From assembly GCA_963791285.1 (NCBI GenBank), contig CAWBSC010000023.1, forward strand, positions 399,767 to 463,766: a DNA stretch of 64,000 bases, given 5' to 3'. Both the position numbers and the translations under genes were made by a program. The notes under the pieces are model-generated. The model was not told where the DNA came from and did no database searches. It saw only the letters and a list, made by a program, of their open reading frames with translations. Numbering within the stretch: the stretch's first letter is position 1; every line of letters starts with the position of its first letter. Below, in pieces: positions 6,583 to 26,835 of the stretch. This stretch comes from an uncultured delta proteobacterium (GTDB taxonomy: Bacteria > Desulfobacterota > Desulfobacteria > Desulfobacterales > SpSt-501).

Positions 6583-6679
6583 GTCTTGCCTCCTAAGGGG
6601 TTTGGCATCGCGCATACGGATGCGCGGGGAGTGGTAACGCTGGGACAGACTACGGATGCGCCTGCGGTGCATGGGAGAT

Positions 6680-14696: not shown

Positions 14697-15509
14697 TCAC
14701 ACCCGTTTCAGGAAGCCGTCCGGGGCAGCGGTGATGGCAAGTTTGTGCTCAATCTGTTTGTCGATTTCCAGTTTCAGCGCCGCACCGTCGACGCCGGCAA
14801 GCGGTTTGGCCTGAAGCTGCCGCAAAAACTCGAACACCGCCGTTTTGGGGTTGTTGCCTTTGCCCCAGGGACGGTCGGTGACGAATCCCTCCGGCAGGTC
14901 CTCAACCCCCGTATCCCAAACTACGCAGTAACTGCTTTTCGAGACCAGGGGGGCGTAGGCGTGGAGTTCTGCAAGTACATGGCTGTGCGTGTGGTTGGAA
15001 TCGAGAAAAACCATGACGGTCTTGAATTCAGCGGCTCGCCCATGCACACGATGGACCACGGCCGGGTCTATCGATGAGCCCTCGATCATCTCAATCATGT
15101 GGCGCATCGGATGCGCATCGATTGCGTTGCGGTTGTGCGCGCGGATTTCGATGTCGATGCCCAGCACCCGTCGCCGCGACGCCGCGGGTAGGATCGTCGT
15201 GCCGGCGACGACGGCCTCGCAGTAGTCGAGCAAAGCCAACATCGAGGCGCTCATCACCAGGGAGCCGCCGTGAGCGATACCGGTCTCGATGACCAGATCG
15301 GGGCGAATGCGCCATATCAGCTCCTGAATGGCATATGCATCCTGCGGAACTTGGATGATGGGGCGGCCCAGCCAGGAAAAATTGTAGGCATAATGGTGCT
15401 TGATGGCCGCCTGGTTCCAGTCGTTGGACAAGGCGATAAACGACTTGTCCTCGCCGATCCCGCGGACGTTACGAGCCACTTCCTCCGAGAACAAAGCGAT
15501 TGGATCCAT
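14697..15509 (-). CDS. CmcI / cephalosporin-hydroxylase-family methyltransferase (rhamnosyl O-methyltransferase-like)
   Basis: 270-aa ORF. WLGRPIIQVPQDAYAIQELIWRIRPDLVIETGIAHGGSLV is characteristic of the CmcI family. Confidence 0.8.
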   Translation of the reverse strand: MDPIALFSEEVARNVRGIGEDKSFIALSNDWNQAAIKHHYAYNFSWLGRPIIQVPQDAYAIQELIWRIRPDLVIETGIAHGGSLVMSASMLALLDYCEAVVAGTTILPAASRRRVLGIDIEIRAHNRNAIDAHPMRHMIEMIEGSSIDPAVVHRVHGRAAEFKTVMVFLDSNHTHSHVLAELHAYAPLVSKSSYCVVWDTGVEDLPEGFVTDRPWGKGNNPKTAVFEFLRQLQAKPLAGVDGAALKLEIDKQIEHKLAITAAPDGFLKRV

Positions 15510-15523
15510 CGGTCGCCGGATTC

Positions 15524-17260
15524 CTATTTAAACGTAGTGGGCATGCGGAACGACACCGCCAAATCCTGCCAGCGCGGGTCTGCTGCAACGATGGCCTCAT
15601 AGCGGGACAGGTGTCGTGCGAAGACGTGGGGATCCACCCCCAGTGCCTGCTGCGCCTGAGCGAGGAAATAAAGGGCAAACGGGTGATCGGGATGCCGGTC
15701 CAGCACCTCCTCGAAGCACCGCTGGGCCGTGACGTAATCGCCGGTCCGCATCCGGTAATTGTCGACGAAGTTTGCCTCCAGGTTCAGGCGGTAGATCAGA
15801 TCGGTGATCCGCTGGGGATCTATGCCGGGTGCGCGGATAATGTACTCGGTCATATCCACCCGACCGATCCCGATGTACTTGCTGTCGATCCAGCCCTTTT
15901 CAAAGCAGGTCCTGAACAACTCCGAGCCGCGCAGCGGCGTAGCGTAATTGAAAAAACTCCAATCAATCCCGGCGTCGTGAATGAAGCGCCGGGTCGCCTC
16001 GCGATCTTCCTCGGTCTCGCCGGGGAATCCGATGATGAAAAAGGATTGCACGAAAATGTCGTTGCGGCGCAGGCAACCAATGACATCCTTAGCCTTGTCG
16101 AGCCTCACCGGCTTCTTGATGATGTTCTTGAGCACATGGTCGGACCCGGATTCGATCGCCAGAATCACCGTGTCGACCCCGCCCTGCTTCATCAGACAGG
16201 CCAATTCCTCGTCGATGAACGTCAGCGTGATGCCGTTCGGCATCTCGACCCGAATGCGGAATTCGGCGAGACGCCGAAACATCTCCTTGGCGCGCGGGAC
16301 ATCAATCAGCAACTGGTCGTCGTAGATCGTCAACACATTCATGCCATAGTGTTCGACCAGGTGGCGAACGTGCTCGACGATCGCGTCGACGTCGGCGAAC
16401 CTCATACTCCTGCCATGCAATGACGGCTCAGCGCAAAACACGCAATGGAAGGGGCAGCCGCGCGAGGTGACGATGAAGAACTGTCGGGTATTGCGATCAT
16501 TCCGGTAGCTGGCAAACGGCGAAAACGCCTCCTTCATGCTGTAGCGCGTGTTCTCCACCAGGTCGTAATCGAGTCGGATCGCCTCGTTGAGGTTTGCCGT
16601 CACCACGGATTTCGGCACCCGATGGGCGGCAAGCGACTCGCGTGTAACCCAAGGATCCTTTTCCAGTTCGCGCCGGGGGTCGTCCGACTCGACCAGCGAC
16701 AGCATCGCTTGCTCGCCTTCCGAGTAGCATAGCGCGTCCAGATTCGGCTGATCGGCCAGGATTTCCTCCCACGCGGTCGTCACTGCTGGACCCCCCATCA
16801 GGGTCAGGATGCGCGGGTCGAAGCGCTTGACCGTTTCCGCCAGGTAGGCAACATGAGTGTAGGACGTGTCGTAGCTCATCGAAAAGCCGATCACCTCGGG
16901 GCCGGTTTCGGCCAGCACTCGTTTCAGCTCTGCGATGCGCTGCCCCTCGGTGGCGTACAGATTGAGATCGAGGATTTTCACCTCGGGCGTCGGCCGCGCC
17001 TTGGCCTTAATGTACGAGGCCATGGCCAGCACACCATAGGGGAACGCCAGGAACGAGCGAACCGCCTTGCCGGGCACGGGTGCGCCAGCCTGGAATACCA
17101 GGTACGGCAACACGCACAATATCACCTTGGCCGGAACCTGACGCTTGACCTGATCCGAGACCGGAGCCCAGGGCTGAGCCAAAGACGGATTCGCCGAGCC
17201 GCCTCGAGGTAAGTACGCGAGTTCGCTGCCTCTCGGCACGATTGCCATAGCGTCGCCCAT
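15524..17260 (-). CDS. B12-binding-domain radical SAM enzyme (class B, putative methyltransferase), paralog 1
   Basis: 578-aa ORF. N-terminal cobalamin-binding-like region, radical SAM motif TSRGCPFHCVFCAEP, helical TPR-like C-terminus. Confidence 0.85.
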   Translation of the reverse strand: MGDAMAIVPRGSELAYLPRGGSANPSLAQPWAPVSDQVKRQVPAKVILCVLPYLVFQAGAPVPGKAVRSFLAFPYGVLAMASYIKAKARPTPEVKILDLNLYATEGQRIAELKRVLAETGPEVIGFSMSYDTSYTHVAYLAETVKRFDPRILTLMGGPAVTTAWEEILADQPNLDALCYSEGEQAMLSLVESDDPRRELEKDPWVTRESLAAHRVPKSVVTANLNEAIRLDYDLVENTRYSMKEAFSPFASYRNDRNTRQFFIVTSRGCPFHCVFCAEPSLHGRSMRFADVDAIVEHVRHLVEHYGMNVLTIYDDQLLIDVPRAKEMFRRLAEFRIRVEMPNGITLTFIDEELACLMKQGGVDTVILAIESGSDHVLKNIIKKPVRLDKAKDVIGCLRRNDIFVQSFFIIGFPGETEEDREATRRFIHDAGIDWSFFNYATPLRGSELFRTCFEKGWIDSKYIGIGRVDMTEYIIRAPGIDPQRITDLIYRLNLEANFVDNYRMRTGDYVTAQRCFEEVLDRHPDHPFALYFLAQAQQALGVDPHVFARHLSRYEAIVAADPRWQDLAVSFRMPTTFK

Positions 17261-17283
17261 GTTCCCGCACCCTCCACGGTGCT

Positions 17284-18471
17284 TCAGCGATTCAGGAGAT
17301 ACAGCACGGCGCCAGTGCCATGCCAGCTGTGCAGGCGGAATTTATAGCGATAGCCGCAATCCCTGAACGCCTCCATCAGCGCCTTCGGGCACTCCCAAAG
17401 CCCGAGGCGGTTGTGATAGACCGCCAAAGTAACCAGAGGACGCCACGCACGTATCGTGCCGACACCGCCTAAAATGGCGTCCAGTTCCGCCCCCTCGATG
17501 TGAGCCTTGATAAAACTCGGCCGCAGCCCGAGGTCGTCGATACGCCGGACCGCCACCTGGACGTTACCAAAGTCACAAAACTGCGACGCGAAATCCAGAC
17601 CATCGAAAAAGACCTGGGTCGTGCTCGCGCGACCCACGGCGCAGGCCAGCACATGCATCCGCAACCGTTCGTCGGCCGGAAGAGCGTCCATCCACATCTG
17701 CAATCGCGCGCGGTTCTCGTCATCAGGCTCGACCGCCCAGATCTCGCGGAAGCGATGCCCGACACGCTCCAGAAAGGTCCGGCACACACTGCCGTGGTGC
17801 GCGCCCAGGTCCAGCAGGCTTTCTTCGGTACCGAGGGTATCGGCCACTTCGTCGATAAAATAGCGGTTTTCAGTATTTACCGGGGCGTCGTCGAACAACC
17901 ACTCCTCGTGGAGACGATGCCATGCCAGGAACTGCAAGTGGTGGGCGCGCGACGCATCGTCGTCATAGGCTCTCAGCACGGCGCCGATACCGTCCACCTC
18001 ATCTTGAGTCAACTCGTCGACGAACCAGCCGTTTCCCAGCGGGTGGCGGTCGGCATAAGATGCGGTAATGGTATAGAAAGGGACCATGTCGCTCCATCCA
18101 CTCTCGGCCAGCGGCGTCACCACGCGGGTGTAGGGCACCTTGCCGACGCAGATCGCCAGCAGGTGTGCGGCCTTGTCGCGCGGCGAAACCTCTTCGGGGG
18201 CATGGAGGGCTACGCTTCGCCAAAACGGATCCGAGCGGCGGGTCGCCGCGTCGGCGTCGATGACGAAGGCCACGGGGATACCCAGCCGGTCGAAGTACTG
18301 TTTGGCCAGTTTGCCGAGCGCGCCGGCGCCGTAAAGCGCCAGCGGCTTGTCGACAGGCCGAGCCCGGGCCGTCACCGGCCGCGCGGCGATTTCGTGCAGC
18401 AGCGATATCGCTGCGTGAGCGTCCGGTGAGGTGGTCAGCCGGCGAGATGCCACTCGGTCCCGTGAGGCCAT
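17284..18471 (-). CDS. FkbM-family SAM-dependent methyltransferase with N-terminal Rossmann-like extension
   Basis: 395-aa ORF. LLDLGAHHGSVCRTF...AVEPDDENRARL...FIKAHIEGAELDAILGG has FkbM-type features. Confidence 0.75.
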   Translation of the reverse strand: MASRDRVASRRLTTSPDAHAAISLLHEIAARPVTARARPVDKPLALYGAGALGKLAKQYFDRLGIPVAFVIDADAATRRSDPFWRSVALHAPEEVSPRDKAAHLLAICVGKVPYTRVVTPLAESGWSDMVPFYTITASYADRHPLGNGWFVDELTQDEVDGIGAVLRAYDDDASRAHHLQFLAWHRLHEEWLFDDAPVNTENRYFIDEVADTLGTEESLLDLGAHHGSVCRTFLERVGHRFREIWAVEPDDENRARLQMWMDALPADERLRMHVLACAVGRASTTQVFFDGLDFASQFCDFGNVQVAVRRIDDLGLRPSFIKAHIEGAELDAILGGVGTIRAWRPLVTLAVYHNRLGLWECPKALMEAFRDCGYRYKFRLHSWHGTGAVLYLLNR

Positions 18472-18483
18472 GGCCGTCTCCCC

Positions 18484-20136
18484 TCAGACCGGCATGCCGA
18501 ATTCTACCGCGTACGAACGCCACTCCGGATCGTCGCGTACCAGTCTTCGGTAGGTGCGCATGTTCTCCTCGATCTGCACCGCATCCGCGTTCAGCGCCCG
18601 ATAGGACTGCGCCAGATAGTAATGGCCGAAGGCATGATTGCCGTAGCGCTCGATCACTTCTTCGAAGCAGCCGGCGGCGATCCGATAATCGCCTATTTTC
18701 ATGCGCCGATTGTTGACGAAATTAACGTCGAGGTTCATGAGATAGGCGCGCCGTGAAATCTTCGCAGGTTCCAGGCCTATTTCAGGCGCGTTGAGGATGT
18801 ACTGGTTGCCCTCGATATCGCCGAGCTTCATGTTGCGCGGGATATAGCCCTTTTCAGTCGCAATGCGATACAGCTCGCTACCCCGCACCGGCGACGCCAT
18901 GGAGAACCCGCTCCAATCGAGCCCCCACTCCTTGATGCAGCGCACGGTTTGCTCGCGGTCCTCCTCACGTTCGCCTGGCAGCCCGACGACGAAATAGGCT
19001 TGCACGAAGATATCGTTTTGTTGCAGCGCCTTAACCACCGGGCCGACACGCTCCAGGCGGATCGGTTTCCTGATCACCTTGCGCACCACATGGTCCGATC
19101 CCGACTCGATGGCCAGTGGCAGGGTATCCAGTCCCGCCTGCTTCATCAGGCAGGCCATCTCGTCGTCGATGAAAACCACGGTGACCCCGTTGGGCGTCTC
19201 CAGCCGCAACTTGAATTCCGCGAGCCGGCGGAACAGCTCCTTGGCTCGCCGCATATCCATCAGCAGTTGGTCATCATAGATCGTCAACACGTTCATGCCA
19301 TACCGGTCGACTCGAAACCGCACATGCTCGATGATGGCATCGACCTCGGCATAGCGCATGCTCTTGCCGTGCAGCGAGGGCTCGGCGCAGAACACGCACT
19401 TGAAAGGGCAGCCGCGTGAGGTGACGAGAAAAAACTGGCGCACATCGGTCTCGTTTCGATAGGAGGCGAACGGGGAGAATGCCTCTTTCATGCTGTAGAC
19501 CTTGCGGTCGATTAAGTCATAGTCGACCGCGATGACATCGTTGAGACGTGAAACATACACGCTGGTGGGTTTGACGCCCCGCGATAACGAAGCGCGGGTC
19601 ACCCATGGCGCGCCGGCGAACGCGTCGTCCAAGCTGGGCGAATTGACCACCTTCAGCATCGCCGCTTCGCCTTCGGAGTAGCACAACACATCGATATCCG
19701 GCTGGTCGGCGAGGATCTCCTCGTACGCGGTGGTTGCCGCTGCACCGCCGATGATGACTCGTGTCGCCGCCGAAAATGACTTGGCCTGGCCGGCGATTGC
19801 GGCAACGTGTTTATAAGACTGGTCAAACATCATTGAGATGCCGACGATGTCCGGCCGCAACTCGGCCATCGCCGCGTCGAGCGCCTGTGCATACTGGTCC
19901 GAAGAGTAGCGATTGAGATCGACAATTCGCAGATCGGGAACGGCATGGGCCCGGCGGCGCAAATACGTCGCAATCGACAACACGCCATATGGAAAGGCCA
20001 GGAAGCTGCGGGTCTTGCCCTGAGTGGCATCCTTCTTCTTTTCCAGGTAAGGCAATATCACGAACAGCAGCGACCGGCGCGGGGCGCGGCCCGCAACCGA
20101 TACCGTCGGATCGCAATGCGTTGGGTTCACATCCAT
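18484..20136 (-). CDS. B12-binding-domain radical SAM enzyme (class B), paralog 2
   Basis: ORF 18484..20181. The preferred start is ATG 20136, preceded by AGGAG. Motif TSRGCPFKCVFCAEP. Colinear with paralog 1 over its full length. Confidence 0.85.
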   Translation of the reverse strand: MDVNPTHCDPTVSVAGRAPRRSLLFVILPYLEKKKDATQGKTRSFLAFPYGVLSIATYLRRRAHAVPDLRIVDLNRYSSDQYAQALDAAMAELRPDIVGISMMFDQSYKHVAAIAGQAKSFSAATRVIIGGAAATTAYEEILADQPDIDVLCYSEGEAAMLKVVNSPSLDDAFAGAPWVTRASLSRGVKPTSVYVSRLNDVIAVDYDLIDRKVYSMKEAFSPFASYRNETDVRQFFLVTSRGCPFKCVFCAEPSLHGKSMRYAEVDAIIEHVRFRVDRYGMNVLTIYDDQLLMDMRRAKELFRRLAEFKLRLETPNGVTVVFIDDEMACLMKQAGLDTLPLAIESGSDHVVRKVIRKPIRLERVGPVVKALQQNDIFVQAYFVVGLPGEREEDREQTVRCIKEWGLDWSGFSMASPVRGSELYRIATEKGYIPRNMKLGDIEGNQYILNAPEIGLEPAKISRRAYLMNLDVNFVNNRRMKIGDYRIAAGCFEEVIERYGNHAFGHYYLAQSYRALNADAVQIEENMRTYRRLVRDDPEWRSYAVEFGMPV

Positions 20137-20161
20137 GCTGCACTCCTGTCCCCGCGCCGGA

Positions 20162-21478
20162 TCATGGCGCGCCGCAACCATCGCGCGTTCGGCTCAGTGC
20201 TTCGGCCCATTGCGCCAGCTTCGGGTCGGTGGGAAAGTAATGGTGGAATTGAAAGGCGCTGCCCTTGGTCTCTTCGAAGGCGTCGTGCGGCATGGTTGGG
20301 AGCGCTTTAATCGACAGCGTTCCGTCGTCATTGAAAATGCGGCCCGATTCCTGGCACGCCAGGAACCAGTTGTGGGGCTGATCCCCCAACACGCTTCGAA
20401 AATCGATCCGAGCGCGTGATCGCGACACCAGGTTCTGATAGGTGACGATGAATGCGTCGGCCAGACGCGCGCGGGTGAAACGCTGCCGGACATTCGACGC
20501 TGCCCGTCGAGCCATGGCCTGACGTTCGGCGGGGGTGCGAGATAACCACCGGATCGCCTCCGCGAACTCGCGTCGGGACGACACCACCATCCCCGTCACA
20601 CCGTGAGAGACGATCGCGGTCTCGGCCGCGTTGTCGAGGACAACGGGCACCACGCCCATCGCCATGGCCTCGATCAGCGCATTCTCGGCCGTGCCATAGT
20701 GCCGAGGGTTGAGCAAGTAAGCCAGGACATCCATCTGGCCGAGTTCGGCGGCCACATCGGTGACGTATCCCCGGAACTCGATCAGTTGCGGACGCCCCGC
20801 AGCGACACACTGGCGATGCAACTGCGCACGGTTCAGCTCGTCGCCCACCATCCGCACTCGAAATTCGGGGTCGCGTACGGCGGCTAACCAGTCGACGTAC
20901 TCGGGGTGCAACTTCGAGAAGTTCAAGCTGCCGAGGTAACCGGTCACCATGCGACGAGTTGGGTGGGCCTGTCGCCACAGGGGTGCCGGCAGATCTTCAC
21001 AGCCGACTCCACTGGAAATGACCGTGATCCGCCCCTCGGCCGCCGATCTTGTCCCGCGGATATTGGGAGCACCCAGCGAGCAAGGCGACGTGAGCACGAA
21101 CTGTGATGCCGCATCGGCCAGCCCGGCCGGTATCACCGGATTGACCAGACCGGACTGATGGCACCAGACCAGCAGCCTTGCCGTCAGAGCATGCAACCCG
21201 CACAGGGTCTCCAGAGTAGCTGGATGGTTCCACCACTCCACCTGGACGATGTCTGCCGTCTCGATGCGCCGCCTCAGCTCCTCACGGCCCGGCCGAACGA
21301 CAACGTCGCAGCCCGCGTCACGGATGGGCCGAACGAATTGGGTCTTTTCCGGACTCTCCAGACAAACGAACGAATGCCGAATGTCGCTACCGGCTGCGGC
21401 CGTTGCCCTGACCAGATTCGACAGCGCCCTGCCCACGCCACCGCCCAGATGCGGCGTCAAATGCAAAACGGTAATCAC
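20162..21478 (-). CDS. GT4-type (GT-B) glycosyltransferase with extra C-terminal domain
   Basis: 438-aa ORF. MITVLHLTPHLGGGVGRAL N-terminus; E-x7-E region GTAENALIEAMAMGVVPV. ATGA overlap with the upstream gene. Confidence 0.8.
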   Translation of the reverse strand: MITVLHLTPHLGGGVGRALSNLVRATAAAGSDIRHSFVCLESPEKTQFVRPIRDAGCDVVVRPGREELRRRIETADIVQVEWWNHPATLETLCGLHALTARLLVWCHQSGLVNPVIPAGLADAASQFVLTSPCSLGAPNIRGTRSAAEGRITVISSGVGCEDLPAPLWRQAHPTRRMVTGYLGSLNFSKLHPEYVDWLAAVRDPEFRVRMVGDELNRAQLHRQCVAAGRPQLIEFRGYVTDVAAELGQMDVLAYLLNPRHYGTAENALIEAMAMGVVPVVLDNAAETAIVSHGVTGMVVSSRREFAEAIRWLSRTPAERQAMARRAASNVRQRFTRARLADAFIVTYQNLVSRSRARIDFRSVLGDQPHNWFLACQESGRIFNDDGTLSIKALPTMPHDAFEETKGSAFQFHHYFPTDPKLAQWAEALSRTRDGCGAP

Positions 21479-22554
21479 GCAGAAACCGTCGAGATACGGT
21501 TCACGCCGGAGGTAACGCCTGGAACCGACTCGAGTTCGCCGGGTGCATACACTTTAAACTTCGCCAGCAGGCCTTCCCTGTACGCGTCAATATTGTCCGG
21601 CATGCCATGAGATAATTGTCCGCACTGACCGCACACCGGATTCTGCTTGCGCTTCCCCTGCAGATGCTGCTTGCGCAGGGCATTCATCCGATCACCATGC
21701 CAGATGGAAGGGATGGACTGGGTCCTGGCATCGCCGATGACCAGCTTCCGTCCCCAGTCCAGAAAGCAGGAACTCACCAAGCCATCCGCATTCACCGACA
21801 TCGAATAGAAAATGTAGGGGCAAGTGTCGGTGAAGGTGATCGGCTGCTTGTAAATCCCCTCGATGATTTTGGCGCCCGTGTACGCCTCGACATCGAACCC
21901 CGGCCAGCATGGAGCGAAATTCTCTATGAAGATGCGGTCACAGGAATCGCCGAAGGTATCCAGGAACTCCTGTCGTTGGGACGCAGAGATCAGATCGCCG
22001 GGAATCTTGATCACCACTTCGCAGCCGTTCCGGTTGGCATACAGCCATCGCACATTTTTGACAAAGCGGCCGAAATCGAAATCAAAGCCGGTGAACTTCA
22101 GGTAGTGCTCACGATTCATCCCGTCGACTGAAATATTGATCTTGTCGAGACCCGCGTCGAGGACGGGCCCAAGCCGCTCCGGCGTTATGAGTGAGCCGTT
22201 TGTGGTGGTGTCGACATACTCGACATGGCCGCTGGCCTTGGCGTACGCGATCATCTTCGCCAGGTTCGGGTTGAGGAAGGGCTCGCCGTCCTTGTACAAG
22301 CGCAGCACCTTTATCGGCTTTTCAAACGCGCCCAGGTCATCAACCACCTTCTGAAGAACCGGGAGTTTCATCACCCCTTGATAACGACCGGTTTCATCGA
22401 TCAAGTCTCGGTGCCCTGTCGGGCAAAATGAACAGTGAAAGTTGCAGACACTCGCCGGATCGGCGAAGACCACGAAGGGAGTGGTCAACGGGATCACGTC
22501 CTGCAACGGGGTGCGGCCTTCAAGATTTATTCCAGGTTTCAGCTTGGCTTTCAT
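21475..22554 (-). CDS. Radical SAM protein with SPASM/twitch-like C-terminal Cys cluster
   Basis: 359-aa ORF. CNFHCSFCP radical SAM motif. C-terminal Cys-rich region (TCPYIF...SSCFLDW...CGQCGQ). Confidence 0.85.
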   Translation of the reverse strand: MKAKLKPGINLEGRTPLQDVIPLTTPFVVFADPASVCNFHCSFCPTGHRDLIDETGRYQGVMKLPVLQKVVDDLGAFEKPIKVLRLYKDGEPFLNPNLAKMIAYAKASGHVEYVDTTTNGSLITPERLGPVLDAGLDKINISVDGMNREHYLKFTGFDFDFGRFVKNVRWLYANRNGCEVVIKIPGDLISASQRQEFLDTFGDSCDRIFIENFAPCWPGFDVEAYTGAKIIEGIYKQPITFTDTCPYIFYSMSVNADGLVSSCFLDWGRKLVIGDARTQSIPSIWHGDRMNALRKQHLQGKRKQNPVCGQCGQLSHGMPDNIDAYREGLLAKFKVYAPGELESVPGVTSGVNRISTVSA

Positions 22555-23494
22555 ATCTCACAGGCTGGTCAGCGACGGGGAACCGTCCGGATTCATCTGG
22601 TTTCGTGAATATGGTTTCCGCCATCCCCTCTTCGAGGGTATAGCGCGGCTGCCACCCCAGATTTTGCAACTGGGTATTCGCCCCGCAGATCATGGGCGGT
22701 TCCCATGCGCGATACGGCAGCGCACCGAACTGCACCAATTCCGAGCGACCGATCAGGGTGGCGATGGTCGTCACCACTTGACGAACGGACACCGGACGTC
22801 CGGACGAAACATTGAAGACGCCGCCGGCCCCCTTTTCCAACAGGACGCAGAAGGCTGCGGCCACATCGACGACGTAAATGTAATCCCGCACCTGCTCGCC
22901 GGCTGTTGTGAGAAACGGAGCGCCCCGCGTCAGCGCCCGGATGGCGGCAGGTGGCAGCCGGCGTTCGTCCTCCTGGGGACCATACGGGTAAAAGATCCGC
23001 CCCCAGGCAAACTGAATACCGGCCCGCGCGGCGATCTGCTGGCCCATCAGGCAGCAGGAAAGCTTGGCCGCCGCATATAGACTTTGGGGCCGGAGGGGGC
23101 TGTCCTCGTTCAGGCAGCCCGCGGCCGTGTCGTACTCGAAGCAGGTTCCCGCGCCCACGATCCGGCGGCAGCCCGCCCGGATCAGCTCGCCGAAGAGGGA
23201 TAGGCTCCCGGTCAACGAATGGATATTTTCCGCAGCATTCAGGTAGGCGCCGGGTTCGGCATGCCAGGCCAAGTGAACGCAACCCTCGGGCCGGACGTCC
23301 GACAGGGCGCGTCGCAGCGCTTCCGCGTCGCCGAGATCTCCGGGCATGACCCGGATCGACCGGCGCACCCCGCGCAGGCGATGCAAGTCATTCCCGGGCC
23401 TTGCCAGGACGACGACCTCGTGCCCCCTCGCCAGCAGGGCCCGGGTCAGGTGCGCCCCGATGAAGCCGGAGGCACCGGTCACGAACACCCTCAT
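22520..23494 (-). CDS. NAD-dependent epimerase/dehydratase-family enzyme (likely sugar-nucleotide 4-ketoreductase/epimerase)
   Basis: ORF 22520..23560. The start is taken at MRVFVTGASGFIGAHL (ATG 23494, ATGA overlap with the upstream stop). YAAAK catalytic motif. Confidence 0.85.
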   Translation of the reverse strand: MRVFVTGASGFIGAHLTRALLARGHEVVVLARPGNDLHRLRGVRRSIRVMPGDLGDAEALRRALSDVRPEGCVHLAWHAEPGAYLNAAENIHSLTGSLSLFGELIRAGCRRIVGAGTCFEYDTAAGCLNEDSPLRPQSLYAAAKLSCCLMGQQIAARAGIQFAWGRIFYPYGPQEDERRLPPAAIRALTRGAPFLTTAGEQVRDYIYVVDVAAAFCVLLEKGAGGVFNVSSGRPVSVRQVVTTIATLIGRSELVQFGALPYRAWEPPMICGANTQLQNLGWQPRYTLEEGMAETIFTKPDESGRFPVADQPVRYESQAETWNKS

Positions 23495-24027
23495 GGAAGC
23501 GGCTCCCAATCCCGGTAGGACATGTCCTTTGCGGAAATTGAGCCCACCGGCAGCGGCCACTCGATTTTAAAAGCGGGGTCGTCCCATCGCACACCCCCCT
23601 CGCTTCCCGGGTGGTAGAAGGCGGACACCTGGTAGAAGACTTCCGCACCCTCCGTGAGGGTCTGGTACCCGTGGGCGAAGCCCTCCGGAACATAGAGCAG
23701 CCTGCGATTTCCGGCCGACAGCTCGACCGCCGCCCATTGCGAGAAGGTCGGGGAGTCGGGCCTCAAATCGAGGATGACGTCGCAAATGGCCCCGGCGGTG
23801 CAGCGCACGAGCTTCGCCTCCGCGTGCGGCGCCCGCTGGTAATGCATTCCGCGCACCGTGCCGACCGTGTGATTGTAGGACAGATTGCACTGGACCAGAT
23901 CGGGGTTCAGGCCGTGCGCCAGGAATTCCCGACGGCAAAACGCACGCGCGAAAAAACCCCGTTCGTCCGCGCGGATTTCGGGTTCGATCAGGTAGGCGCC
24001 TTTCAACCGGGTGGCGACGAAACGCAT
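23491..24027 (-). CDS. NDP-4-dehydro-6-deoxyhexose 3,5-epimerase (RmlC/cupin family)
   Basis: 178-aa ORF. RGMHYQ and LYVPEGFAHGYQTL motifs. Confidence 0.9.
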   Translation of the reverse strand: MRFVATRLKGAYLIEPEIRADERGFFARAFCRREFLAHGLNPDLVQCNLSYNHTVGTVRGMHYQRAPHAEAKLVRCTAGAICDVILDLRPDSPTFSQWAAVELSAGNRRLLYVPEGFAHGYQTLTEGAEVFYQVSAFYHPGSEGGVRWDDPAFKIEWPLPVGSISAKDMSYRDWEPLP

Positions 24028-24033
24028 GCCGGG

Positions 24034-24810
24034 CTACCACACCTTCCACTCGGCGCGGCCGGATTCCCATAGTCGGTTGAGGTCTTCCTTGTCGCGCAGC
24101 GCATCCATACACTTCCAGAACCCGTGGTGCTTGTAGGCCATCAGCTGCTGGTCCCGCGAAAGGCTCTCCAGCGGGTCCTGTTCCCACATTTTCTGGTCCG
24201 AGTCCGGCGGCAAATAGGAGAACACGTCCGGCCGCAGGACGAAAAAACCGCCGTTGATCCAGCCGCCGTCGCCGACGATTTTTTCCTTGAAGCTGGATAC
24301 GCGTTCGTCGTCGTCCAGCGTCAGCAGGCCGAACCGCCCCGCCGGCTGGACGGCCGTCACCGTGGCGATTTTCCCGTGTCTGCGGTGAAACGCGATCAAC
24401 TCTTCCAGGCGGATGTCGGCGATGCCGTCGCCGTAGGTCAGCAGGAACTCTTCGTTGCCGACGTAGTGTTGGACTCGCTTCAGGCGGCCGGCCGTCCGAG
24501 TATGAAGCCCGGTTTCCACCAACGTCACCCGGAAATTCTCCGTATTGGCGTGATAGATTTCAAAGCTGTTGGTTTTCAGATTGAAGGTGACGTCCGAATT
24601 GTAGACGTAGTAGTTCATGAAGTACTCTTTGATCATGTACCCCTTGTAGCCCAGGCAGATGATGAAGTCGGTATGCCCCTGCGCGGCGTAAATTTTCATG
24701 ATGTGCCAGAGCATGGGTTTTTCGCCGATCTCGATCATCGGCTTGGGTTTCAGCCATGATTCTTCCGATATGCGAGTACCGAGTCCGCCGGCAAAAATGA
24801 CGACTTTCAT
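24034..24810 (-). CDS. rfbF: Glucose-1-phosphate cytidylyltransferase
   Basis: 258-aa ORF. MKVVIFAGGLGTRISEESWLKPKPMIEIGEKPMLWHIMKIY is a near-textbook RfbF N-terminus. Confidence 0.9.
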   Translation of the reverse strand: MKVVIFAGGLGTRISEESWLKPKPMIEIGEKPMLWHIMKIYAAQGHTDFIICLGYKGYMIKEYFMNYYVYNSDVTFNLKTNSFEIYHANTENFRVTLVETGLHTRTAGRLKRVQHYVGNEEFLLTYGDGIADIRLEELIAFHRRHGKIATVTAVQPAGRFGLLTLDDDERVSSFKEKIVGDGGWINGGFFVLRPDVFSYLPPDSDQKMWEQDPLESLSRDQQLMAYKHHGFWKCMDALRDKEDLNRLWESGRAEWKVW

Positions 24811-24870
24811 GTGATCTCCTGCTGGTCCTGTCGGTGCTTCAGGATATTCTGCGGCCTTGGTCCGCGCGGT

Positions 24871-26073
24871 CTATATTGCGATCGGCCTCGGCCCGCGACA
24901 CCGCGTGCGATCGGCCGGTTTGGGCGTCTCGACGACCGGACGCCTGCGACCCCGATGCTCAGCCGCGGGAGCGGCCGCCCCCATTGCTTTTTCTTCGACC
25001 TGTCGAATCTGCTCCCGACAATACGGGTACATGTCCTTTGCCGGGTGACCGGAGTAATAGGCTTTATACCAGTCGGTCGTCATGCGCAGGCATTCGTCGA
25101 CAGTGAGGACGCTGCGCCAATCGAGATCAGCATGGGCCTTGTCGCAGTTCAGCTTGAGACGCATCGCTTCGTGGGGGGCCTGCGGATCGGAGAGGTCATC
25201 CCAACATCCCTTACCCCAGCAGTCGATGAGCCGGTCGGCCATCGCGGCCACCGTCAGGGCGCTGCGGCTCTCGGGGCCGAAATTCCAGGCGCCGGAATAG
25301 GCCGCGGGGTCTCGCCAGAGGGCGGCGCCGAGGCGCAGATAACCGTGAAGGGGTTCCAGAACGTGCTGCCAGGGCCGGATGGCGTTGGGGTTGCGAATGC
25401 CGATGGCCCGCCCGCTGCTGAGGGCACGGATGCAATCGGGGACGAGGCGGTCTGCACCCCAGTCGCCGCCGCCGATGACATTCCCCGCCCGCGCGGATGC
25501 GGCTCCGATGCACGCGACCCCGGGCCGTGAACCGGAAGGGCGCGGGGAAAAAAACGATTTCAGATACGCCTTGAAGACCAGTTCCGCGCACCCCTTGGAT
25601 GCGCTGTAGGGATCATGGCCCCCCAGCGGGTCGTTCTCCCGGTAGCCCCAGGCCCACTCCTGGTTTTCATAACACTTGTCGCTGGTCACATTGACCATGA
25701 CTCTGACGCTGGCGGTTCGGCGGACAGCCTCCAGCACGTTCACCGTGCCGCCGACGTTCGTGTCGAAGGTCGTTTTCGGCTCATCGTATGAAAGACGAAC
25801 AATGGGCTGGGCGGCCAAGTGAAAGACCACCTCCGGCTGATAGGTAGTGAACGCCTCCATCAGCCCGTTCAAATTTCGAATGTCTCCGTAAAGGTGCGTT
25901 ATTTTCTCGTGCAGCCTCGTTGCCATAAAATTGCTGGGGCTGCTCGGGGGCGCGAGTGAATAGCCGATGACGTCCGCACCCAATTCCTTCAGCCAGATCG
26001 CCAGCCAGGACCCTTTGAAACCGGTGTGGCCCGTGATGAGCACCGTCTTGTCTTTGTAGCTGTCAGCGAACAC
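24871..26073 (-). CDS. rfbG: CDP-glucose 4,6-dehydratase (with ~40-aa low-complexity C-terminal tail)
   Basis: 400-aa ORF. KTVLITGHTGFKGSWLAIWL and YSASKGCAEL motifs. Confidence 0.9.
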   Translation of the reverse strand: MFADSYKDKTVLITGHTGFKGSWLAIWLKELGADVIGYSLAPPSSPSNFMATRLHEKITHLYGDIRNLNGLMEAFTTYQPEVVFHLAAQPIVRLSYDEPKTTFDTNVGGTVNVLEAVRRTASVRVMVNVTSDKCYENQEWAWGYRENDPLGGHDPYSASKGCAELVFKAYLKSFFSPRPSGSRPGVACIGAASARAGNVIGGGDWGADRLVPDCIRALSSGRAIGIRNPNAIRPWQHVLEPLHGYLRLGAALWRDPAAYSGAWNFGPESRSALTVAAMADRLIDCWGKGCWDDLSDPQAPHEAMRLKLNCDKAHADLDWRSVLTVDECLRMTTDWYKAYYSGHPAKDMYPYCREQIRQVEEKAMGAAAPAAEHRGRRRPVVETPKPADRTRCRGPRPIAI

Positions 26074-26512
26074 GAACGTGTTTTCCCCTTGGGCTGCCGG
26101 TTTGAAACGACTCGTCGATCTGCGTCAGATCCCCCTCCGTGTTTGGCGGCGCGAGGGACTGAGTGGGGGCCGACGCCGCGCTCTCGAAATAGCGATTGAC
26201 CTCGTGCTTGACCAGTTCGGCGATTCGCGCGGCAAGGTGCTCCAGTGAAGGCGCAGGTGACATCGCTGCGTCCTTCCGGCCCGACGATATCCGCACATCG
26301 ATTTCATCCAGGCTCAGGCCGTCCGCCTTTAGGCGCTTGATCAGCGCGATCACCGCGACATGCTCGGGGGAGTACCGCCTCTGGCCGCCTTTGCTGCGAT
26401 CGGGGAACATATGGGCTTGGAATTTTCTCTCCCAAAACCGCAGCGTGGACTTGGACACCCCGCACTGCGCGCTGACCTGCTGGATGGTGAATAACTGAGA
26501 ATTGGGTTTCAT
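26063..26512 (-). CDS. MerR-family transcriptional regulator
   Basis: ORF 26063..26602. The start is taken at MKPNSQLF (ATG 26512). HTH: FTIQQVSAQCGVSKSTLRFWERKF...RRYSPEHV. Its 3' end overlaps the rfbG start by 11 nt. Confidence 0.75.
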   Translation of the reverse strand: MKPNSQLFTIQQVSAQCGVSKSTLRFWERKFQAHMFPDRSKGGQRRYSPEHVAVIALIKRLKADGLSLDEIDVRISSGRKDAAMSPAPSLEHLAARIAELVKHEVNRYFESAASAPTQSLAPPNTEGDLTQIDESFQTGSPRGKHVRVR

Positions 26513-26835
26513 CTGAATGATCGATTTTCCGGGAGGTGTGGGATGCCAGGGCATGAGGTCGCGAGCCGGGAATATGGCTCCGCCCCTTCGATTACATCCC
26601 AAGGCGGATTTTCGGGCGTGAACTTTAACTTCCGGTTCAACTTAGCAACATATATGCCATGGACTTCCGCAAAAATTTTTATGTTTATTTTCAGAGTATT
26701 GAACGTGGTTTCACGAGGATAACGTGATCGGAAGTCAAGTCGCTGACGTTCAATCTTCAACCACATGCGCTGCAAGTTTGACGGTCCAAAATCGGGCCGG
26801 CGCCTAAACCTTTCCCCGGCACGGGCGATATTCAT

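What the first reader, a model, noticed from the sequence alone, without database searches (positions are those of the whole stretch)
14697..26073. CDP-activated 6-deoxy-L-hexose pathway coupled to B12-radical-SAM, SPASM radical SAM, CmcI and FkbM enzymes: a C-/O-methylated (vinelose-like?) sugar
rfbF and rfbG make CDP-4-keto-6-deoxy-D-glucose. The E1/E3 (ddhC/ddhD) genes needed for 3,6-dideoxyhexoses are absent. Instead an RmlC-type 3,5-epimerase and an SDR reductase follow, which is a rhamnose-like logic run on a CDP scaffold. The same operon carries two class-B (cobalamin) radical SAM enzymes (typical C-methylases of unactivated carbons), a SPASM/twitch radical SAM enzyme (a class that includes sugar dehydrogenases and epimerases), a CmcI-family enzyme (a family that includes rhamnosyl O-methyltransferases) and an FkbM methyltransferase. 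The only CDP-linked, C-methyl, O-methyl 6-deoxy-L-hexose I know of is vinelose (6-deoxy-3-C-methyl-2-O-methyl-L-talose, found as the CDP-sugar in Azotobacter). To my knowledge its genetics are not established. This cluster has every enzyme class such a sugar would need, although C-methylation by B12-rSAM rather than a TylC3-type enzyme would be novel.
Basis: inference. Interest (0 to 1): 0.72.

Follow-up and report, generated by a model that had tools for sequence, protein, structure and literature searches.

The report
Radical-SAM sugar-tailoring cassette in glycosylation island

Summary
No E1 (RfbH) or TylC3-type C-methyltransferase occurs anywhere in the 64 kb.

The operon lies in a lower-GC3 island (about 167-28074) of soluble TPR, GT41, GT2 and GT4 proteins. 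The island has no flippase, polymerase or other multi-pass membrane protein. The host is an uncultured Desulfobacterales-like bacterium.

The same cassette recurs across phyla:
- A Rhodocyclaceae MAG has the identical gene order between two flagellin genes, and a Nitrospirota MAG also has it next to flagellin.
- An Elusimicrobia contig has it in a Wzx/Wzy locus.
- Some relatives add RfbH, giving a 3,6-dideoxy version.
- Others have TylC3, with conventional methyltransferases in exactly the slots held here by the B12-rSAMs.

The SPASM enzyme folds most like BtrN and DesII, which act on carbohydrates. The B12-rSAMs form their own clade. Their best fold match is AprD4, a cobalamin-free sugar dehydratase, but their N-terminal domain aligns with the true cobalamin domains of TokK, OxsB and CysS.

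Verdict: a new variant of NDP-sugar tailoring, probably for protein (flagellin-type) glycosylation. C-methylation is plausible but unproven, and vinelose is unsupported.

The parts
26063..26602 (-). MerR-family regulator, overlaps the rfbG start by 11 nt
   Evidence: PF13411, 69 bits. The same gene is called in the near-identical contig L004.
24871..26073 (-). CDP-glucose 4,6-dehydratase (RfbG/DdhB)
   Evidence: TIGR02622, 477 bits against a cutoff of 278.
24034..24810 (-). Glucose-1-phosphate cytidylyltransferase (RfbF/DdhA)
   Evidence: TIGR02623, 395 bits against a cutoff of 300.
23491..24027 (-). RmlC-type NDP-4-keto-6-deoxyhexose 3,5- (or 5-) epimerase
   Evidence: TIGR01221, 177.5 bits against a cutoff of 155.75. 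PF00908, 216 bits. Catalytic His, Lys, Tyr and Asp candidates are visible in the sequence.
22520..23560 (-). Extended SDR, putative NDP-4-ketohexose reductase. The likely true start is near 23494.
   Evidence: PF01370, 146 bits. PDB matches are generic (GalE, GDP-4-keto-6-deoxy-mannose reductases). L004 calls a 322-aa product.
21475..22554 (-). Twitch/partial-SPASM radical SAM enzyme. It is the most conserved gene of the cassette.
   Evidence: PF04055 and PF13186. About 2000 homologs, many at 70-79% identity across classes. Model pLDDT is 76.6, and the top fold matches are BtrN and DesII. Cysteine pattern.
20162..21478 (-). GT4 glycosyltransferase dedicated to the cassette
   Evidence: PF13692 and PF00534. 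It is 29-55% identical and adjacent to the SPASM gene in nearly all related loci.
18484..20181 (-). B12-binding-domain radical SAM enzyme, paralog B
   Evidence: PF02310, 60 bits, and PF04055, 74 bits. It occupies the slot held by a class-I methyltransferase in L090 and L156.
17284..18471 (-). FkbM-family methyltransferase with an uncharacterised N-terminal domain of about 210 aa
   Evidence: TIGR01444, 47.5 bits against a cutoff of 37.7. PDB match 2py6, FkbM. It is 48% identical to FkbM1 of L090.
15524..17260 (-). B12-binding-domain radical SAM enzyme, paralog A, with a C-terminal TPR-like helical domain
   Evidence: PF02310, 54.6 bits, PF04055, 83 bits, and weak TPR hits. The model (pLDDT 83) has a 5-strand/5-helix Rossmann domain, a TIM barrel and a helical tail. 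It occupies the slot held by a second FkbM in L011, L090 and L156.
14697..15509 (-). CmcI/rhamnosyl-O-methyltransferase-family enzyme
   Evidence: PF04989, 282 bits. It is 52-74% identical in most related cassettes that carry it (37-45% in L010 and L088).
13471..14586 (-). GT2 glycosyltransferase
   Evidence: PF00535, 94 bits.
10740..13436 (-). Large soluble protein with a weak methyltransferase region and a polysaccharide deacetylase domain
   Evidence: PF01522, 82 bits, and PF13489 (weak).
7465..11502 (-). Large soluble GT4 plus GT41(OGT-like) glycosyltransferase. The true start is probably near 10740.
   Evidence: PF13692, PF13439 and PF13844. Weak similarity to the flagellin-adjacent TPR-GT41 protein of L087.
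6680..7468 (-). GT2 glycosyltransferase
   Evidence: PF00535, 76 bits.
5152..6687 (-). TPR-repeat protein
   Evidence: Multiple TPR families.
3297..5105 (-). GT-B-like glycosyltransferase
   Evidence: PF13524, 65 bits.
1922..3292 (-). GT2-TPR fusion protein
   Evidence: PF00535 and TPR families. Weak resemblance to the SunS peptide glycosyltransferase.
167..1750 (+). TPR-repeat protein at the left edge of the island
   Evidence: TPR families.
26836..28074 (+). TPR-repeat protein at the right edge of the island, divergently transcribed
   Evidence: TPR families.

Best explanation
The region is the sugar-making and sugar-decorating core of a horizontally acquired glycosylation island with no membrane-embedded glycan-assembly or export machinery. 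The host is an uncultured Desulfobacterales-like bacterium.

Proposed steps, each marked as shown or inferred:
1. RfbF and RfbG make CDP-4-keto-6-deoxy-D-glucose. This is assigned at equivalog level.
2. An RmlC-type epimerase and an SDR convert it to a CDP-6-deoxy-L-hexose. The enzyme families are shown. The substrate nucleotide and the product stereochemistry are inferred.
3. A highly conserved twitch radical-SAM enzyme with a BtrN/DesII-like fold abstracts a hydrogen from the sugar, to oxidise or epimerise an unactivated carbinol centre. This is inferred.
4. A dedicated GT4 transfers the sugar onto a growing glycan. This is inferred.
5. A stack of four tailoring enzymes then acts. CmcI and FkbM are probable O-methyltransferases. 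The two paralogous B12-domain radical-SAM enzymes probably add methyl groups to non-nucleophilic carbons, either ring or C6 carbons or an O-methyl group. This is inferred.
6. Soluble TPR, GT41 and GT2 enzymes in the island build and attach the glycan to a protein. In relatives that protein is most likely flagellin. This is inferred from the orthologous cassettes.

The cassette is modular and mobile. Relatives swap the carbon-modification modules: RfbH for 3-deoxygenation, TylC3 for enolate C-methylation, and B12-rSAMs in place of ordinary methyltransferases.
For: - HMM assignments are above curated cutoffs for RfbF, RfbG, RmlC and FkbM, and Pfam hits are strong for the rest.
- The gene spacing is tight.
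- GC3 is 0.74-0.80 in the cassette against 0.88-0.95 in flanking housekeeping genes. GC is 57-62% against 64-70% in most of the rest of the window.
- No multi-pass membrane protein is encoded in 167-28074, and no Wzx, Wzy or ABC transporter domains were seen.
- L087 (Rhodocyclaceae) has the identical gene order, 35-77% identical gene by gene, followed by a TPR-GT41 gene. The whole block lies between two flagellin genes and next to flaG, fliD, fliS and fliT.
- L008 (Nitrospirota) has B12, CmcI, TPR-GT41, flagellin, flaG and fliD in a row.
- The cassette is conserved in Pelobacter, Methylomagnum, Fibrobacteres, Thermodesulfovibrionales, Rickettsiaceae, Elusimicrobia and Alphaproteobacteria.
- The SPASM enzyme's top fold matches are BtrN and DesII.
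- The N-terminal domain of the B12-rSAM family aligns by sequence with the cobalamin domains of TokK, OxsB and CysS, and the model has a 5-strand/5-helix Rossmann fold.
- The B12-rSAMs replace conventional methyltransferases slot for slot. Compare SPASM-GT4-B12B-FkbM1-B12A-CmcI here with B12-FkbM1-FkbM2-CmcI in L011 and SPASM-GT4-MT23-FkbM1-FkbM2-CmcI in L090 and L156.
- GyrA is 84-93% identical to Desulfobacterales MAG proteins.
Against: - The window has no flagellin or flagellar gene. Its GT41 protein is only 23% identical to the flagellin-adjacent one.
- One relative (L088) puts the cassette in a Wzz/Wzy/Wzx polysaccharide locus.
- The best structural match of the B12-rSAM model is AprD4, which binds no cobalamin and is a dehydratase (PMC12931638).
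- The enzymes fall far below every curated class-B subfamily cutoff.
- Two of 14 loci with 49-54% identical B12-rSAM homologs have no glycan genes nearby (L005/L006 and L012).
- L156 and L157 have the SPASM-GT4-methyltransferase module without rfbF or rfbG nearby, so the donor sugar need not always be the CDP-hexose.
- No step has biochemical support, and no paper on this cassette was found.
Confidence: 0.55

Rival explanations
1. First reader's hypothesis. The operon makes CDP-vinelose (6-deoxy-3-C-methyl-2-O-methyl-L-talose) or a close analogue. A B12-rSAM installs the 3-C-methyl group, and CmcI or FkbM installs the 2-O-methyl group.
For: - The pathway is CDP-activated and RmlC plus SDR logic is present.
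- O-methyltransferase candidates are present.
- Sibling cassettes with a TylC3-type C-methyltransferase show that this cassette family does make C-branched CDP-6-deoxyhexoses.
Against: - The window has no TylC3-type enzyme.
- Four methyl-transfer candidates plus a twitch rSAM are more than vinelose needs.
- RfbH-containing siblings keep the B12, SPASM and FkbM genes although C3 is deoxygenated. This argues against a role tied to a C3 carbinol.
- No link to Azotobacter could be tested, and the library holds no paper that mentions vinelose.
Confidence: 0.05
2. The two 'B12' radical-SAM enzymes are not methyltransferases. They perform cobalamin-independent, or cobalamin-dependent but non-methylating, radical chemistry on the sugar. 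Examples are AprD4-like 1,2-diol dehydration (deoxygenation), ring contraction or rearrangement.
For: - AprD4 is the top fold match (E = 1e-18, TM 0.73-0.75 on the target). It acts on a sugar ring.
- A review states that AprD4 binds no cobalamin although it sits in B12-rSAM similarity networks (PMC12931638).
- The class also contains BchE, HpnJ and OxsB, which are not methylases.
- E1 and E3 are absent here, so a radical route to deoxygenation would fill a gap.
Against: - Sequence similarity to AprD4 is confined to the rSAM core. The N-terminal domain aligns with the true cobalamin domains of TokK, OxsB and CysS.
- The best sub-threshold HMM hits are methyltransferases (Sden_1168 and PhpK P-methyltransferases, QCMT).
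- The genes sit in the slots of ordinary methyltransferases in sibling cassettes.
- RfbH-containing relatives also keep a B12-rSAM.
Confidence: 0.25
3. The cassette supplies a modified sugar for a lipid-carrier-dependent polysaccharide (O-antigen, capsule or EPS), not for protein glycosylation. The transport and polymerisation genes lie elsewhere in the genome.
For: - The Elusimicrobia relative L088 has the cassette between Wzz/Wzy and a Wzx flippase.
- The Pelobacter locus L001 has no flagellar genes.
- rfbF and rfbG are classically O-antigen genes.
- The window contains no flagellin.
Against: - Every protein in the 28-kb island is soluble. TPR and GT41 fusions are abundant, and there is no initiating phosphoglycosyltransferase, flippase, polymerase or ABC transporter.
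- Two independent relatives place the cassette directly between or next to flagellin genes.
- Other relatives fuse it to nonulosonic-acid genes, which are typical of flagellin glycosylation islands.
Confidence: 0.2
4. The radical-SAM enzymes act on the protein acceptor (for example side-chain C-methylation of flagellin) or on a non-sugar small molecule, not on the sugar.
For: - A C-terminal TPR-like domain on the B12-rSAMs could bind a protein.
- QCMT/MgmA, which modifies a protein, is the best sequence match in the PDB.
- Homologs at 49-54% identity occur in loci without glycan genes.
Against: - The genes are interleaved with sugar genes in 12 of 14 loci, including a Wzx/Wzy polysaccharide locus where no protein acceptor is expected.
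- The SPASM enzyme resembles carbohydrate-acting BtrN and DesII.
- No precursor-peptide gene was seen in the operon.
Confidence: 0.1

Closest known systems
CDP-ascarylose / 3,6-dideoxyhexose pathway (RfbF/DdhA, RfbG/DdhB, RfbH/DdhC=E1, RfbI/DdhD=E3, AscE epimerase, AscF reductase) of Yersinia and Salmonella
   Same: - The first two enzymes are the same, assigned at equivalog level.
- An RmlC-type epimerase plus an SDR reductase acts on a CDP-4-ketohexose.
- Sibling cassettes (Pelobacter, Methylomagnum) also carry a true RfbH.
   Different: - The window lacks E1 and E3, so C3 keeps its hydroxyl.
- Three radical-SAM enzymes, two methyltransferases and a dedicated GT4 are appended.
- The context is a soluble protein-glycosylation-type island, not an O-antigen locus.
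Class-B radical-SAM sugar C-methyltransferases of antibiotic pathways (GenK, GenD1, Fms7, MoeK5). Named from the review PMC12931638 and from general knowledge.
   Same: - The domain architecture matches: an N-terminal Rossmann/B12 domain plus a CxxxCxxC TIM barrel.
- The enzymes are embedded in a carbohydrate pathway.
- The plausible role is methylation of an unactivated sugar carbon.
   Different: - No sequence-level membership could be shown, because no GenK or MoeK5 model or sequence was available.
- Every curated class-B model scores far below its cutoff.
- These enzymes have a C-terminal TPR-like domain.
- They occur in primary cell-surface or flagellin glycan loci of many phyla, not in actinomycete antibiotic clusters.
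BtrN and DesII (twitch and related radical-SAM enzymes acting on carbohydrates and NDP-sugars)
   Same: - They are the top fold matches of the SPASM enzyme model (E = 6.5e-12 and 7.7e-10).
- The C-terminal auxiliary-cluster domain aligns with the BtrN twitch domain by sequence.
- The gene position next to NDP-sugar genes is similar.
   Different: - Identity is only 17-19% and TM scores are modest (0.5 on the query).
- The protein is larger and has an extra insert of low model confidence (residues 203-216).
- The substrate and reaction are unknown.
- It scores far below the DesII equivalog cutoff (21.6 against 450 bits).
AprD4 (radical-SAM 1,2-diol dehydratase of apramycin biosynthesis)
   Same: - It is the best structural match of the B12-rSAM model.
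- Its substrate is a sugar.
- It has an N-terminal Rossmann-like domain.
   Different: - AprD4 does not bind cobalamin (PMC12931638).
- Sequence similarity is limited to the rSAM core.
- The NCBIfam AprD4 model scores 54-60 bits against a cutoff of 500.
Flagellin glycosylation islands with TPR-glycosyltransferases (for example the FlmG, GmaR and Maf types; from general knowledge) and with FkbM methyltransferases (PMC5109656)
   Same: - The glycosyltransferases are soluble TPR or GT41 fusions.
- NDP-sugar genes and methyltransferases are clustered together.
- Orthologous cassettes lie between flagellin genes (L087, L008) or next to nonulosonate genes (L090, L156).
- The GC content is island-like.
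   Different: - The window has no flagellar gene.
- No paper in the searchable library describes an island that combines flagellin glycosylation with radical-SAM enzymes. Whether described islands contain CDP-6-deoxyhexose genes was not established.
TylC3-type NDP-hexose C-methyltransferase pathways (branched 6-deoxyhexoses such as mycarose; vinelose is presumed to belong here)
   Same: Sibling cassettes (L088, L089, L090, L010) contain a PF08421/PF08484 C-methyltransferase between the rmlC and SDR genes. These cassettes share the same SPASM, GT4, FkbM and CmcI core.
   Different: The window has no such gene. If a C-methyl branch is made here, it must come from a different, radical mechanism.

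Membership tests
CDP-glucose pathway entry (RfbF + RfbG) | Glucose-1-phosphate cytidylyltransferase, matched by an equivalog HMM above its curated cutoff | tested here: met
   TIGR02623, 394.8 bits against 300.25.
CDP-glucose pathway entry (RfbF + RfbG) | CDP-glucose 4,6-dehydratase, matched by an equivalog HMM above its curated cutoff | tested here: met
   TIGR02622, 477.4 bits against 278.45.
3,6-dideoxyhexose (ddh/asc) pathway | Presence of the E1 3-dehydrase (RfbH/DdhC) | tested here: not met
   tblastn of a true RfbH (L001, 721 bits to NF011936) against the whole window gave a best E-value of 0.83.
3,6-dideoxyhexose (ddh/asc) pathway | Presence of the E3 reductase (RfbI/DdhD: Fer2, FAD and NAD domains) | tested here: inconclusive
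   No such architecture was seen among the ORFs scanned with Pfam. Not every ORF of the window was scanned, and the rest of the genome is unseen.
RmlC 3,5-epimerase family | Equivalog HMM above its cutoff, and the catalytic His/Lys/Tyr/Asp set | tested here: met
   TIGR01221, 177.5 bits against 155.75. RGMH, AKLV, Tyr and Asp are visible in the translation. The residue roles come from general knowledge of RmlC.
RmlC 3,5-epimerase family | Acts on the CDP-linked (not dTDP-linked) 4-keto-6-deoxyhexose, and performs double rather than single epimerisation | not testable with these tools
   This is inferred only from operon context. There is no rmlA, rmlB or rmlD in the operon.
Class-B (cobalamin-dependent) radical-SAM methyltransferases | A CxxxCxxC radical-SAM core plus an N-terminal B12-binding-type Rossmann domain | tested here: met
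   PF04055 and PF02310 are above gathering scores in both paralogs. The motif CPFHCVFC is present. The model has a 5-strand/5-helix Rossmann fold. The N-terminal domain aligns with the B12 domains of TokK, OxsB and CysS.
Class-B (cobalamin-dependent) radical-SAM methyltransferases | Actual cobalamin binding and methyl transfer | not testable with these tools
   No diagnostic sequence motif exists, because the cofactor is bound base-off and His-off (PMC12931638). AprD4 is the top fold match, which is a warning.
Class-B (cobalamin-dependent) radical-SAM methyltransferases | Membership of a characterised subfamily (PhpK/Sden_1168, QCMT, HpnR, KedN5, TsrM type, and so on) | tested here: not met
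   The best hit is NF038361 at 141.5-142.2 bits against a cutoff of 575. All others are lower.
SPASM/twitch radical-SAM enzymes | A radical-SAM core plus a C-terminal auxiliary Fe-S (SPASM) domain | tested here: met
   PF04055, 64 bits, and PF13186, 49.5 bits against a cutoff of 21.5. The BtrN twitch domain aligns by sequence.
SPASM/twitch radical-SAM enzymes | The full seven-cysteine SPASM motif (two auxiliary clusters) versus twitch (one cluster) | tested here: inconclusive
   Five C-terminal Cys are conserved in the alignment. The window protein has Gly where most orthologs have a further Cys. This is closer to twitch.
CmcI / rhamnosyl O-methyltransferase family | Pfam family membership | tested here: met
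   PF04989, 282 bits against a cutoff of 23.2.
CmcI / rhamnosyl O-methyltransferase family | Equivalog of the mycobacterial rhamnosyl 2-O-methyltransferase | tested here: not met
   NF045824, 74.9 bits against a cutoff of 400.
Vinelose (CDP-6-deoxy-3-C-methyl-2-O-methyl-L-talose) biosynthesis | CDP activation and a 4-keto-6-deoxy intermediate | tested here: met
   RfbF and RfbG are assigned at equivalog level.
Vinelose (CDP-6-deoxy-3-C-methyl-2-O-methyl-L-talose) biosynthesis | An enzyme able to place a methyl branch at C3 | tested here: inconclusive
   No TylC3-type gene is present in the window. The B12-rSAMs could do it in principle, but their regiochemistry and even their methylase activity are unknown.
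Vinelose (CDP-6-deoxy-3-C-methyl-2-O-methyl-L-talose) biosynthesis | L-talo configuration, 2-O-methylation, and occurrence in Azotobacter | not testable with these tools
   Stereochemistry and regiochemistry cannot be read from sequence.
Flagellin glycosylation island | Physical linkage to flagellin or flagellar genes | tested here: not met
   The window has no flagellin, FlaG, FliD or FliS homolog. The feature is met for the orthologous cassettes L087 and L008.
Flagellin glycosylation island | Soluble (TPR-)glycosyltransferases without lipid-carrier export machinery | tested here: met
   GT41, GT4, GT2 and TPR proteins are present. No multi-pass membrane protein is encoded in 167-28074.

The most novel reading that the evidence does not exclude
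The two B12-domain radical-SAM paralogs and the twitch radical-SAM enzyme act on a CDP-derived 6-deoxy-L-hexose, or on its glycoside. They install methyl or alkyl groups at unactivated carbons. Possible outcomes are C-branches, extension of C6, or CysS-like growth of an O-methyl group into O-ethyl or O-isopropyl. They would also invert or oxidise a carbinol centre. The product would be a previously unseen, poly-alkylated deoxysugar on flagellin or another surface glycoprotein. This would be the first cobalamin-dependent radical-SAM chemistry described in primary (non-antibiotic) bacterial glycan biosynthesis. It would also be a radical alternative to TylC3-type branching and to ordinary methyltransfer, used across many phyla.
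Probability: 0.35. Interest if true: 0.8.

Novelty: new variant of a known kind. Interest (0 to 1): 0.62.

Why it matters
- **Scale.** The SPASM enzyme has about 2000 relatives at E <= 1e-10. The B12-rSAM query has more than 1400 relatives at E <= 0.001, and the best 120 are at least 50% identical. Carriers span Proteobacteria, Desulfobacterota, Nitrospirota, Fibrobacterota and Elusimicrobiota.
- **New chemistry.** If the rSAM enzymes act on the sugar, this defines new enzymology for surface or flagellar glycans. Until now such enzymology has been known mainly from aminoglycoside and moenomycin antibiotic pathways.
- **A ready-made comparison.** Natural variants of the cassette differ in RfbH, TylC3, B12-rSAM and ordinary methyltransferase content. 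Comparing them can assign each enzyme to a position on the sugar.
- **Tractable test organisms.** Cultured carriers exist: Methylomagnum ishizawai, Pelobacter (Syntrophotalea) carbinolicus, Mariprofundus aestuarium and Oceanibaculum pacificum.
- **Vinelose.** The TylC3-bearing relatives give a concrete genetic lead for the long-unassigned CDP-vinelose-type sugars.

Tried and rejected
- **Exact-sequence lookup of the window B12-rSAM.** It is not on record. The 99% identical P0001 was used instead.
- **Genome-contig scan with alignment A1.** Only about 9 of 80 loci were close relatives.
- **Metagenome-contig scan with the single protein.** It returned almost only distant class-B rSAMs (21-37% identity) on short contigs and added nothing.
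- **Literature.** Nine of the ten searches found no paper on this cassette. The combinations covered radical SAM, cobalamin, CDP-glucose, vinelose, FkbM, flagellin, 3-C-methyl, Azotobacter and flagellin glycosylation island. The tenth search (AprD4 + cobalamin) was a look-up of AprD4's cobalamin status. A 2026 review of B12-rSAM enzymes does not mention sugar, glycan or polysaccharide substrates beyond listing GenK, GenD1, Fms7 and MoeK5.
- **Placement against GenK, Fom3 and MoeK5.** This was not possible because no sequences or curated models were available. NCBIfam and PDB profiles served as proxies and gave no membership.
- **PDB sequence searches of the SDR, CmcI and FkbM proteins.** They gave only generic family matches and no stereo- or regiochemical information.
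- **NCBIfam scan of the other island proteins.** Nothing was above cutoff.
- **An apparent 66% identity of rfbF between the window and L004.** This was a pair of compensating frameshifts in L004, not divergence.
- **Rejected idea: the RmlC gene belongs to an ordinary dTDP-rhamnose pathway.** There is no rmlA, rmlB or rmlD in the operon.
- **Rejected idea: the two B12-rSAMs are a recent tandem duplicate.** They are 52% identical, both copies are conserved in L087, and a rough NJ tree groups each with different single-copy homologs.

Full report

Yes. The interval 14697-26073 holds ten tightly spaced minus-strand genes.

| Gene product | Coordinates | Key match |
|---|---|---|
| CDP-glucose 4,6-dehydratase (RfbG) | 24871-26073 | TIGR02622, 477 bits (cutoff 278) |
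| Glc-1-P cytidylyltransferase (RfbF) | 24034-24810 | TIGR02623, 395 bits (cutoff 300) |
| RmlC-type epimerase | 23491-24027 | TIGR01221, 177.5 bits (cutoff 155.75) |
| Extended SDR | 22520-23560 | PF01370, 146 bits |
| SPASM radical-SAM enzyme | 21475-22554 | PF04055 + PF13186 |
| GT4 glycosyltransferase | 20162-21478 | PF13692 + PF00534 |
| B12-rSAM, paralog B | 18484-20181 | PF02310 + PF04055 |
| FkbM methyltransferase | 17284-18471 | TIGR01444, 47.5 bits (cutoff 37.7) |
| B12-rSAM, paralog A | 15524-17260 | PF02310 + PF04055 |
| CmcI-family enzyme | 14697-15509 | PF04989, 282 bits |

- The RmlC-type protein shows the expected catalytic-residue candidates.
- The two B12-rSAMs are 52% identical paralogs.
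- A true E1 (RfbH) used as a tblastn probe finds nothing in the 64 kb (best E = 0.83). A TylC3-type C-methyltransferase probe also finds nothing.

**2. Context in the window**

- The operon continues on both sides. A MerR gene overlaps the rfbG start.
- Downstream lie a GT2 gene, a large deacetylase/methyltransferase-like protein, a GT4+GT41 protein of more than 1000 aa, another GT2, TPR proteins, a GT-B-like protein and a GT2-TPR fusion. These reach about 1922. Divergent TPR genes sit at both edges.
- None of these proteins has multiple hydrophobic segments. No flippase, polymerase, ABC transporter or initiating transferase was seen.
- The cassette has GC3 of 0.74-0.80 against 0.88-0.95 in the flanking housekeeping genes (gyrA, gpsA, der, mgsA, thiolase, serA). 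GC dips to 57-62%. This marks an acquired island.
- GyrA is 84-93% identical to proteins from Desulfobacterales MAGs.
- A contig that is 98.6% identical exists in ENA (L004).

**3. Relatives elsewhere**

The B12-rSAM query has more than 1400 homologs at E <= 0.001, and the best 120 are at least 50% identical. The SPASM enzyme has about 2000 homologs, many at 70-79% identity across classes. A uniform tblastn panel over the fetched loci, together with precomputed gene calls, shows a modular cassette.

*Core genes.* The SPASM enzyme, GT4, FkbM and usually CmcI form the core. They are nearly always preceded by rfbF, rfbG, rmlC and the SDR.

*Variable modules:*
- RfbH/E1 is present in Pelobacter carbinolicus, Methylomagnum ishizawai and L079. 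It is confirmed at 715-721 bits against a cutoff of 423 for the Pelobacter and Methylomagnum proteins. This gives an ascarylose-like 3,6-dideoxy version.
- A TylC3-type C-methyltransferase is present in Mariprofundus aestuarium, Oceanibaculum pacificum, L088 and L010.
- One or two B12-rSAMs are present in the window, L087, L007, L001, L003, L008-L011, L013, L079 and L088.
- A second SPASM type is present in some loci.

*Slot-for-slot replacement of methyltransferases:*

| Locus | Gene order |
|---|---|
| Window and L087 | SPASM-GT4-B12(B)-FkbM1-B12(A)-CmcI |
| L011 | B12-FkbM1-FkbM2-CmcI |
| L090 and L156 | SPASM-GT4-(class-I MT)-FkbM1-FkbM2-CmcI |

*Where the cassette sits:*
- In the Rhodocyclaceae MAG L087, the window's exact gene order is followed by a 1128-aa TPR-GT41 protein. 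The block lies between two flagellin genes and next to flaG, fliD, fliS and fliT.
- In the Nitrospirota MAG L008, the B12 and CmcI genes are followed by TPR-GT41, flagellin, flaG and fliD.
- In L090 and L156 the module abuts nonulosonic-acid genes.
- In the Elusimicrobia contig L088 it lies in a Wzz/Wzy/Wzx locus.

*Exceptions.* Two loci with 49-54% identical B12-rSAMs lack glycan genes (L005/L006 and L012).

**4. What the radical-SAM enzymes look like**

*SPASM enzyme.*
- The model has pLDDT 76.6.
- Its best solved-structure matches are BtrN (E = 6.5e-12) and DesII, followed by MoaA, anSME, BlsE and SpeY.
- Its C-terminal cysteine domain aligns with the BtrN twitch domain.
- It has five conserved C-terminal cysteines rather than the full SPASM set.
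- These features fit a carbohydrate-directed dehydrogenase or epimerase type of radical enzyme.

*B12-rSAM.*
- The model has pLDDT 83.3. It has a 5-strand/5-helix Rossmann domain, a TIM barrel and a C-terminal TPR-like helical domain.
- Foldseek ranks AprD4 first (E = 1e-18). MgmA/QCMT, TsrM, CysS, OxsB and TokK follow.
- AprD4 is a sugar 1,2-diol dehydratase that does not bind cobalamin (PMC12931638). The methylase assignment is therefore not automatic.
- At the sequence level, however, AprD4 matches only the rSAM core. TokK, OxsB and CysS match the N-terminal domain.
- The best sub-threshold curated models are methyltransferases.
- Together with the slot replacement of ordinary methyltransferases, I judge methyl transfer the more likely function, at roughly 0.5-0.6.

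**5. Most likely mechanism**

1. CDP-D-glucose is converted to CDP-4-keto-6-deoxy-D-glucose. This is assigned at equivalog level.
2. Epimerisation and 4-ketoreduction give a CDP-6-deoxy-L-hexose. The enzyme families are shown; the product is inferred.
3. The twitch enzyme performs a radical oxidation or epimerisation. This is inferred.
4. The dedicated GT4 transfers the sugar. This is inferred.
5. CmcI and FkbM add two O-methyl groups. The B12-rSAM paralogs add two methyl groups at non-nucleophilic carbons. This is inferred, and the order relative to glycosyl transfer is unknown.
6. The soluble TPR, GT41 and GT2 enzymes attach the glycan to a protein. In relatives that protein is flagellin.

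Because RfbH-bearing siblings keep the same radical enzymes, their chemistry probably does not need the 3-OH.

**6.

- The 'rhamnose-like logic on a CDP scaffold' holds.
- The vinelose proposal is not supported by anything specific. It fits the TylC3-bearing, B12-less relatives better.
  - ddhC is absent from the window but present in sibling cassettes.
  - Clade placement is undecidable, because the family is a separate clade.
  - Biochemistry is untested.

**7. Novelty**

Nine of the ten library searches turned up no paper on such a cassette, and the tenth only looked up AprD4's cobalamin status. A 2026 review of B12-rSAM enzymes lists no glycan-pathway members beyond antibiotic sugars. The components are known kinds. 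Their combination, spread and probable target are not described. I rate it a new variant of a known kind, with interest 0.62.

Noticed in passing
window 51578-52855 and 52866-53612 (+): Two adjacent ORFs are the N-terminal and C-terminal parts of one AMP-binding, acetyl-CoA-synthetase-like gene. This is a frameshift, a pseudogene or an assembly indel.
   Followed up: no
window 167-28074 compared with the flanks: The glycosylation island has lower GC (57-62%) than most of the rest of the window (64-70%). GC3 of the cassette genes (14697-26073) is 0.74-0.80, against 0.88-0.95 in the neighbouring housekeeping genes; several other island genes are higher (0.85-0.91). This suggests horizontal acquisition.
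   Followed up: partly
window 10740-11502 (-): Two long minus-strand ORFs overlap by about 760 bp in different frames. One encodes the 898-aa deacetylase-containing protein and the other the 1345-aa GT4+GT41 protein. The GT protein probably starts near 10740, which makes it about 1090 aa.
   Followed up: no
L004 2450-3226 (ENA ERZ25039487 contig_42162): This contig is 98.6% identical to the window, but its rfbF carries two compensating frameshifts (residues about 91-187 are garbled) and its large GT and deacetylase genes are fragmented. The window is the cleaner assembly.
   Followed up: yes
L019 52-10190 (marine MAG JAHJDJ010000220): Seven class-B radical-SAM paralogs lie in a row within 11 kb. 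Their function is unknown.
   Followed up: no
L001 15302-20656 (Pelobacter carbinolicus CP000142): The cassette is followed by an acetolactate-synthase-like ThDP enzyme, a short-chain dehydrogenase, an ATP-grasp enzyme, a PIG-L deacetylase and a formyltransferase. The ThDP enzyme plus dehydrogenase pair recalls the YerE/YerF chemistry that builds the yersiniose branched chain.
   Followed up: no
L005/L006 8491-15106 and L012 9719-11629: B12-rSAM homologs that are 49-54% identical to the window enzymes occur without any glycan genes. In L005/L006 the neighbours are a second B12-rSAM, an SDR, a methyltransferase, a ThDP enzyme and EamA transporters. In L012 they are a GntR regulator and acyl-CoA genes.
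   Followed up: partly
L156 2829-16781, L157, and L090 1-16652: The SPASM-GT4-MT-FkbM-FkbM-CmcI module lies directly downstream of NeuB, NeuC-like and CMP-nonulosonate-type genes. In L156 and L157 there is no rfbF or rfbG nearby. This suggests the module can decorate glycans that contain nonulosonic acids.
   Followed up: partly
window 1922-3292 (-): The GT2-TPR fusion has weak similarity (49 bits, far below the cutoff) to the SunS family of peptide S-glycosyltransferases.
   Followed up: no
window 15524-17260 (-), residues about 482-570 of the product: Both B12-rSAM paralogs and their homologs end in a conserved TPR-like helical domain with an invariant NLxxNFVxN motif. None of the curated class-B rSAM models aligned across it in these searches. 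It may be a docking domain.
   Followed up: partly
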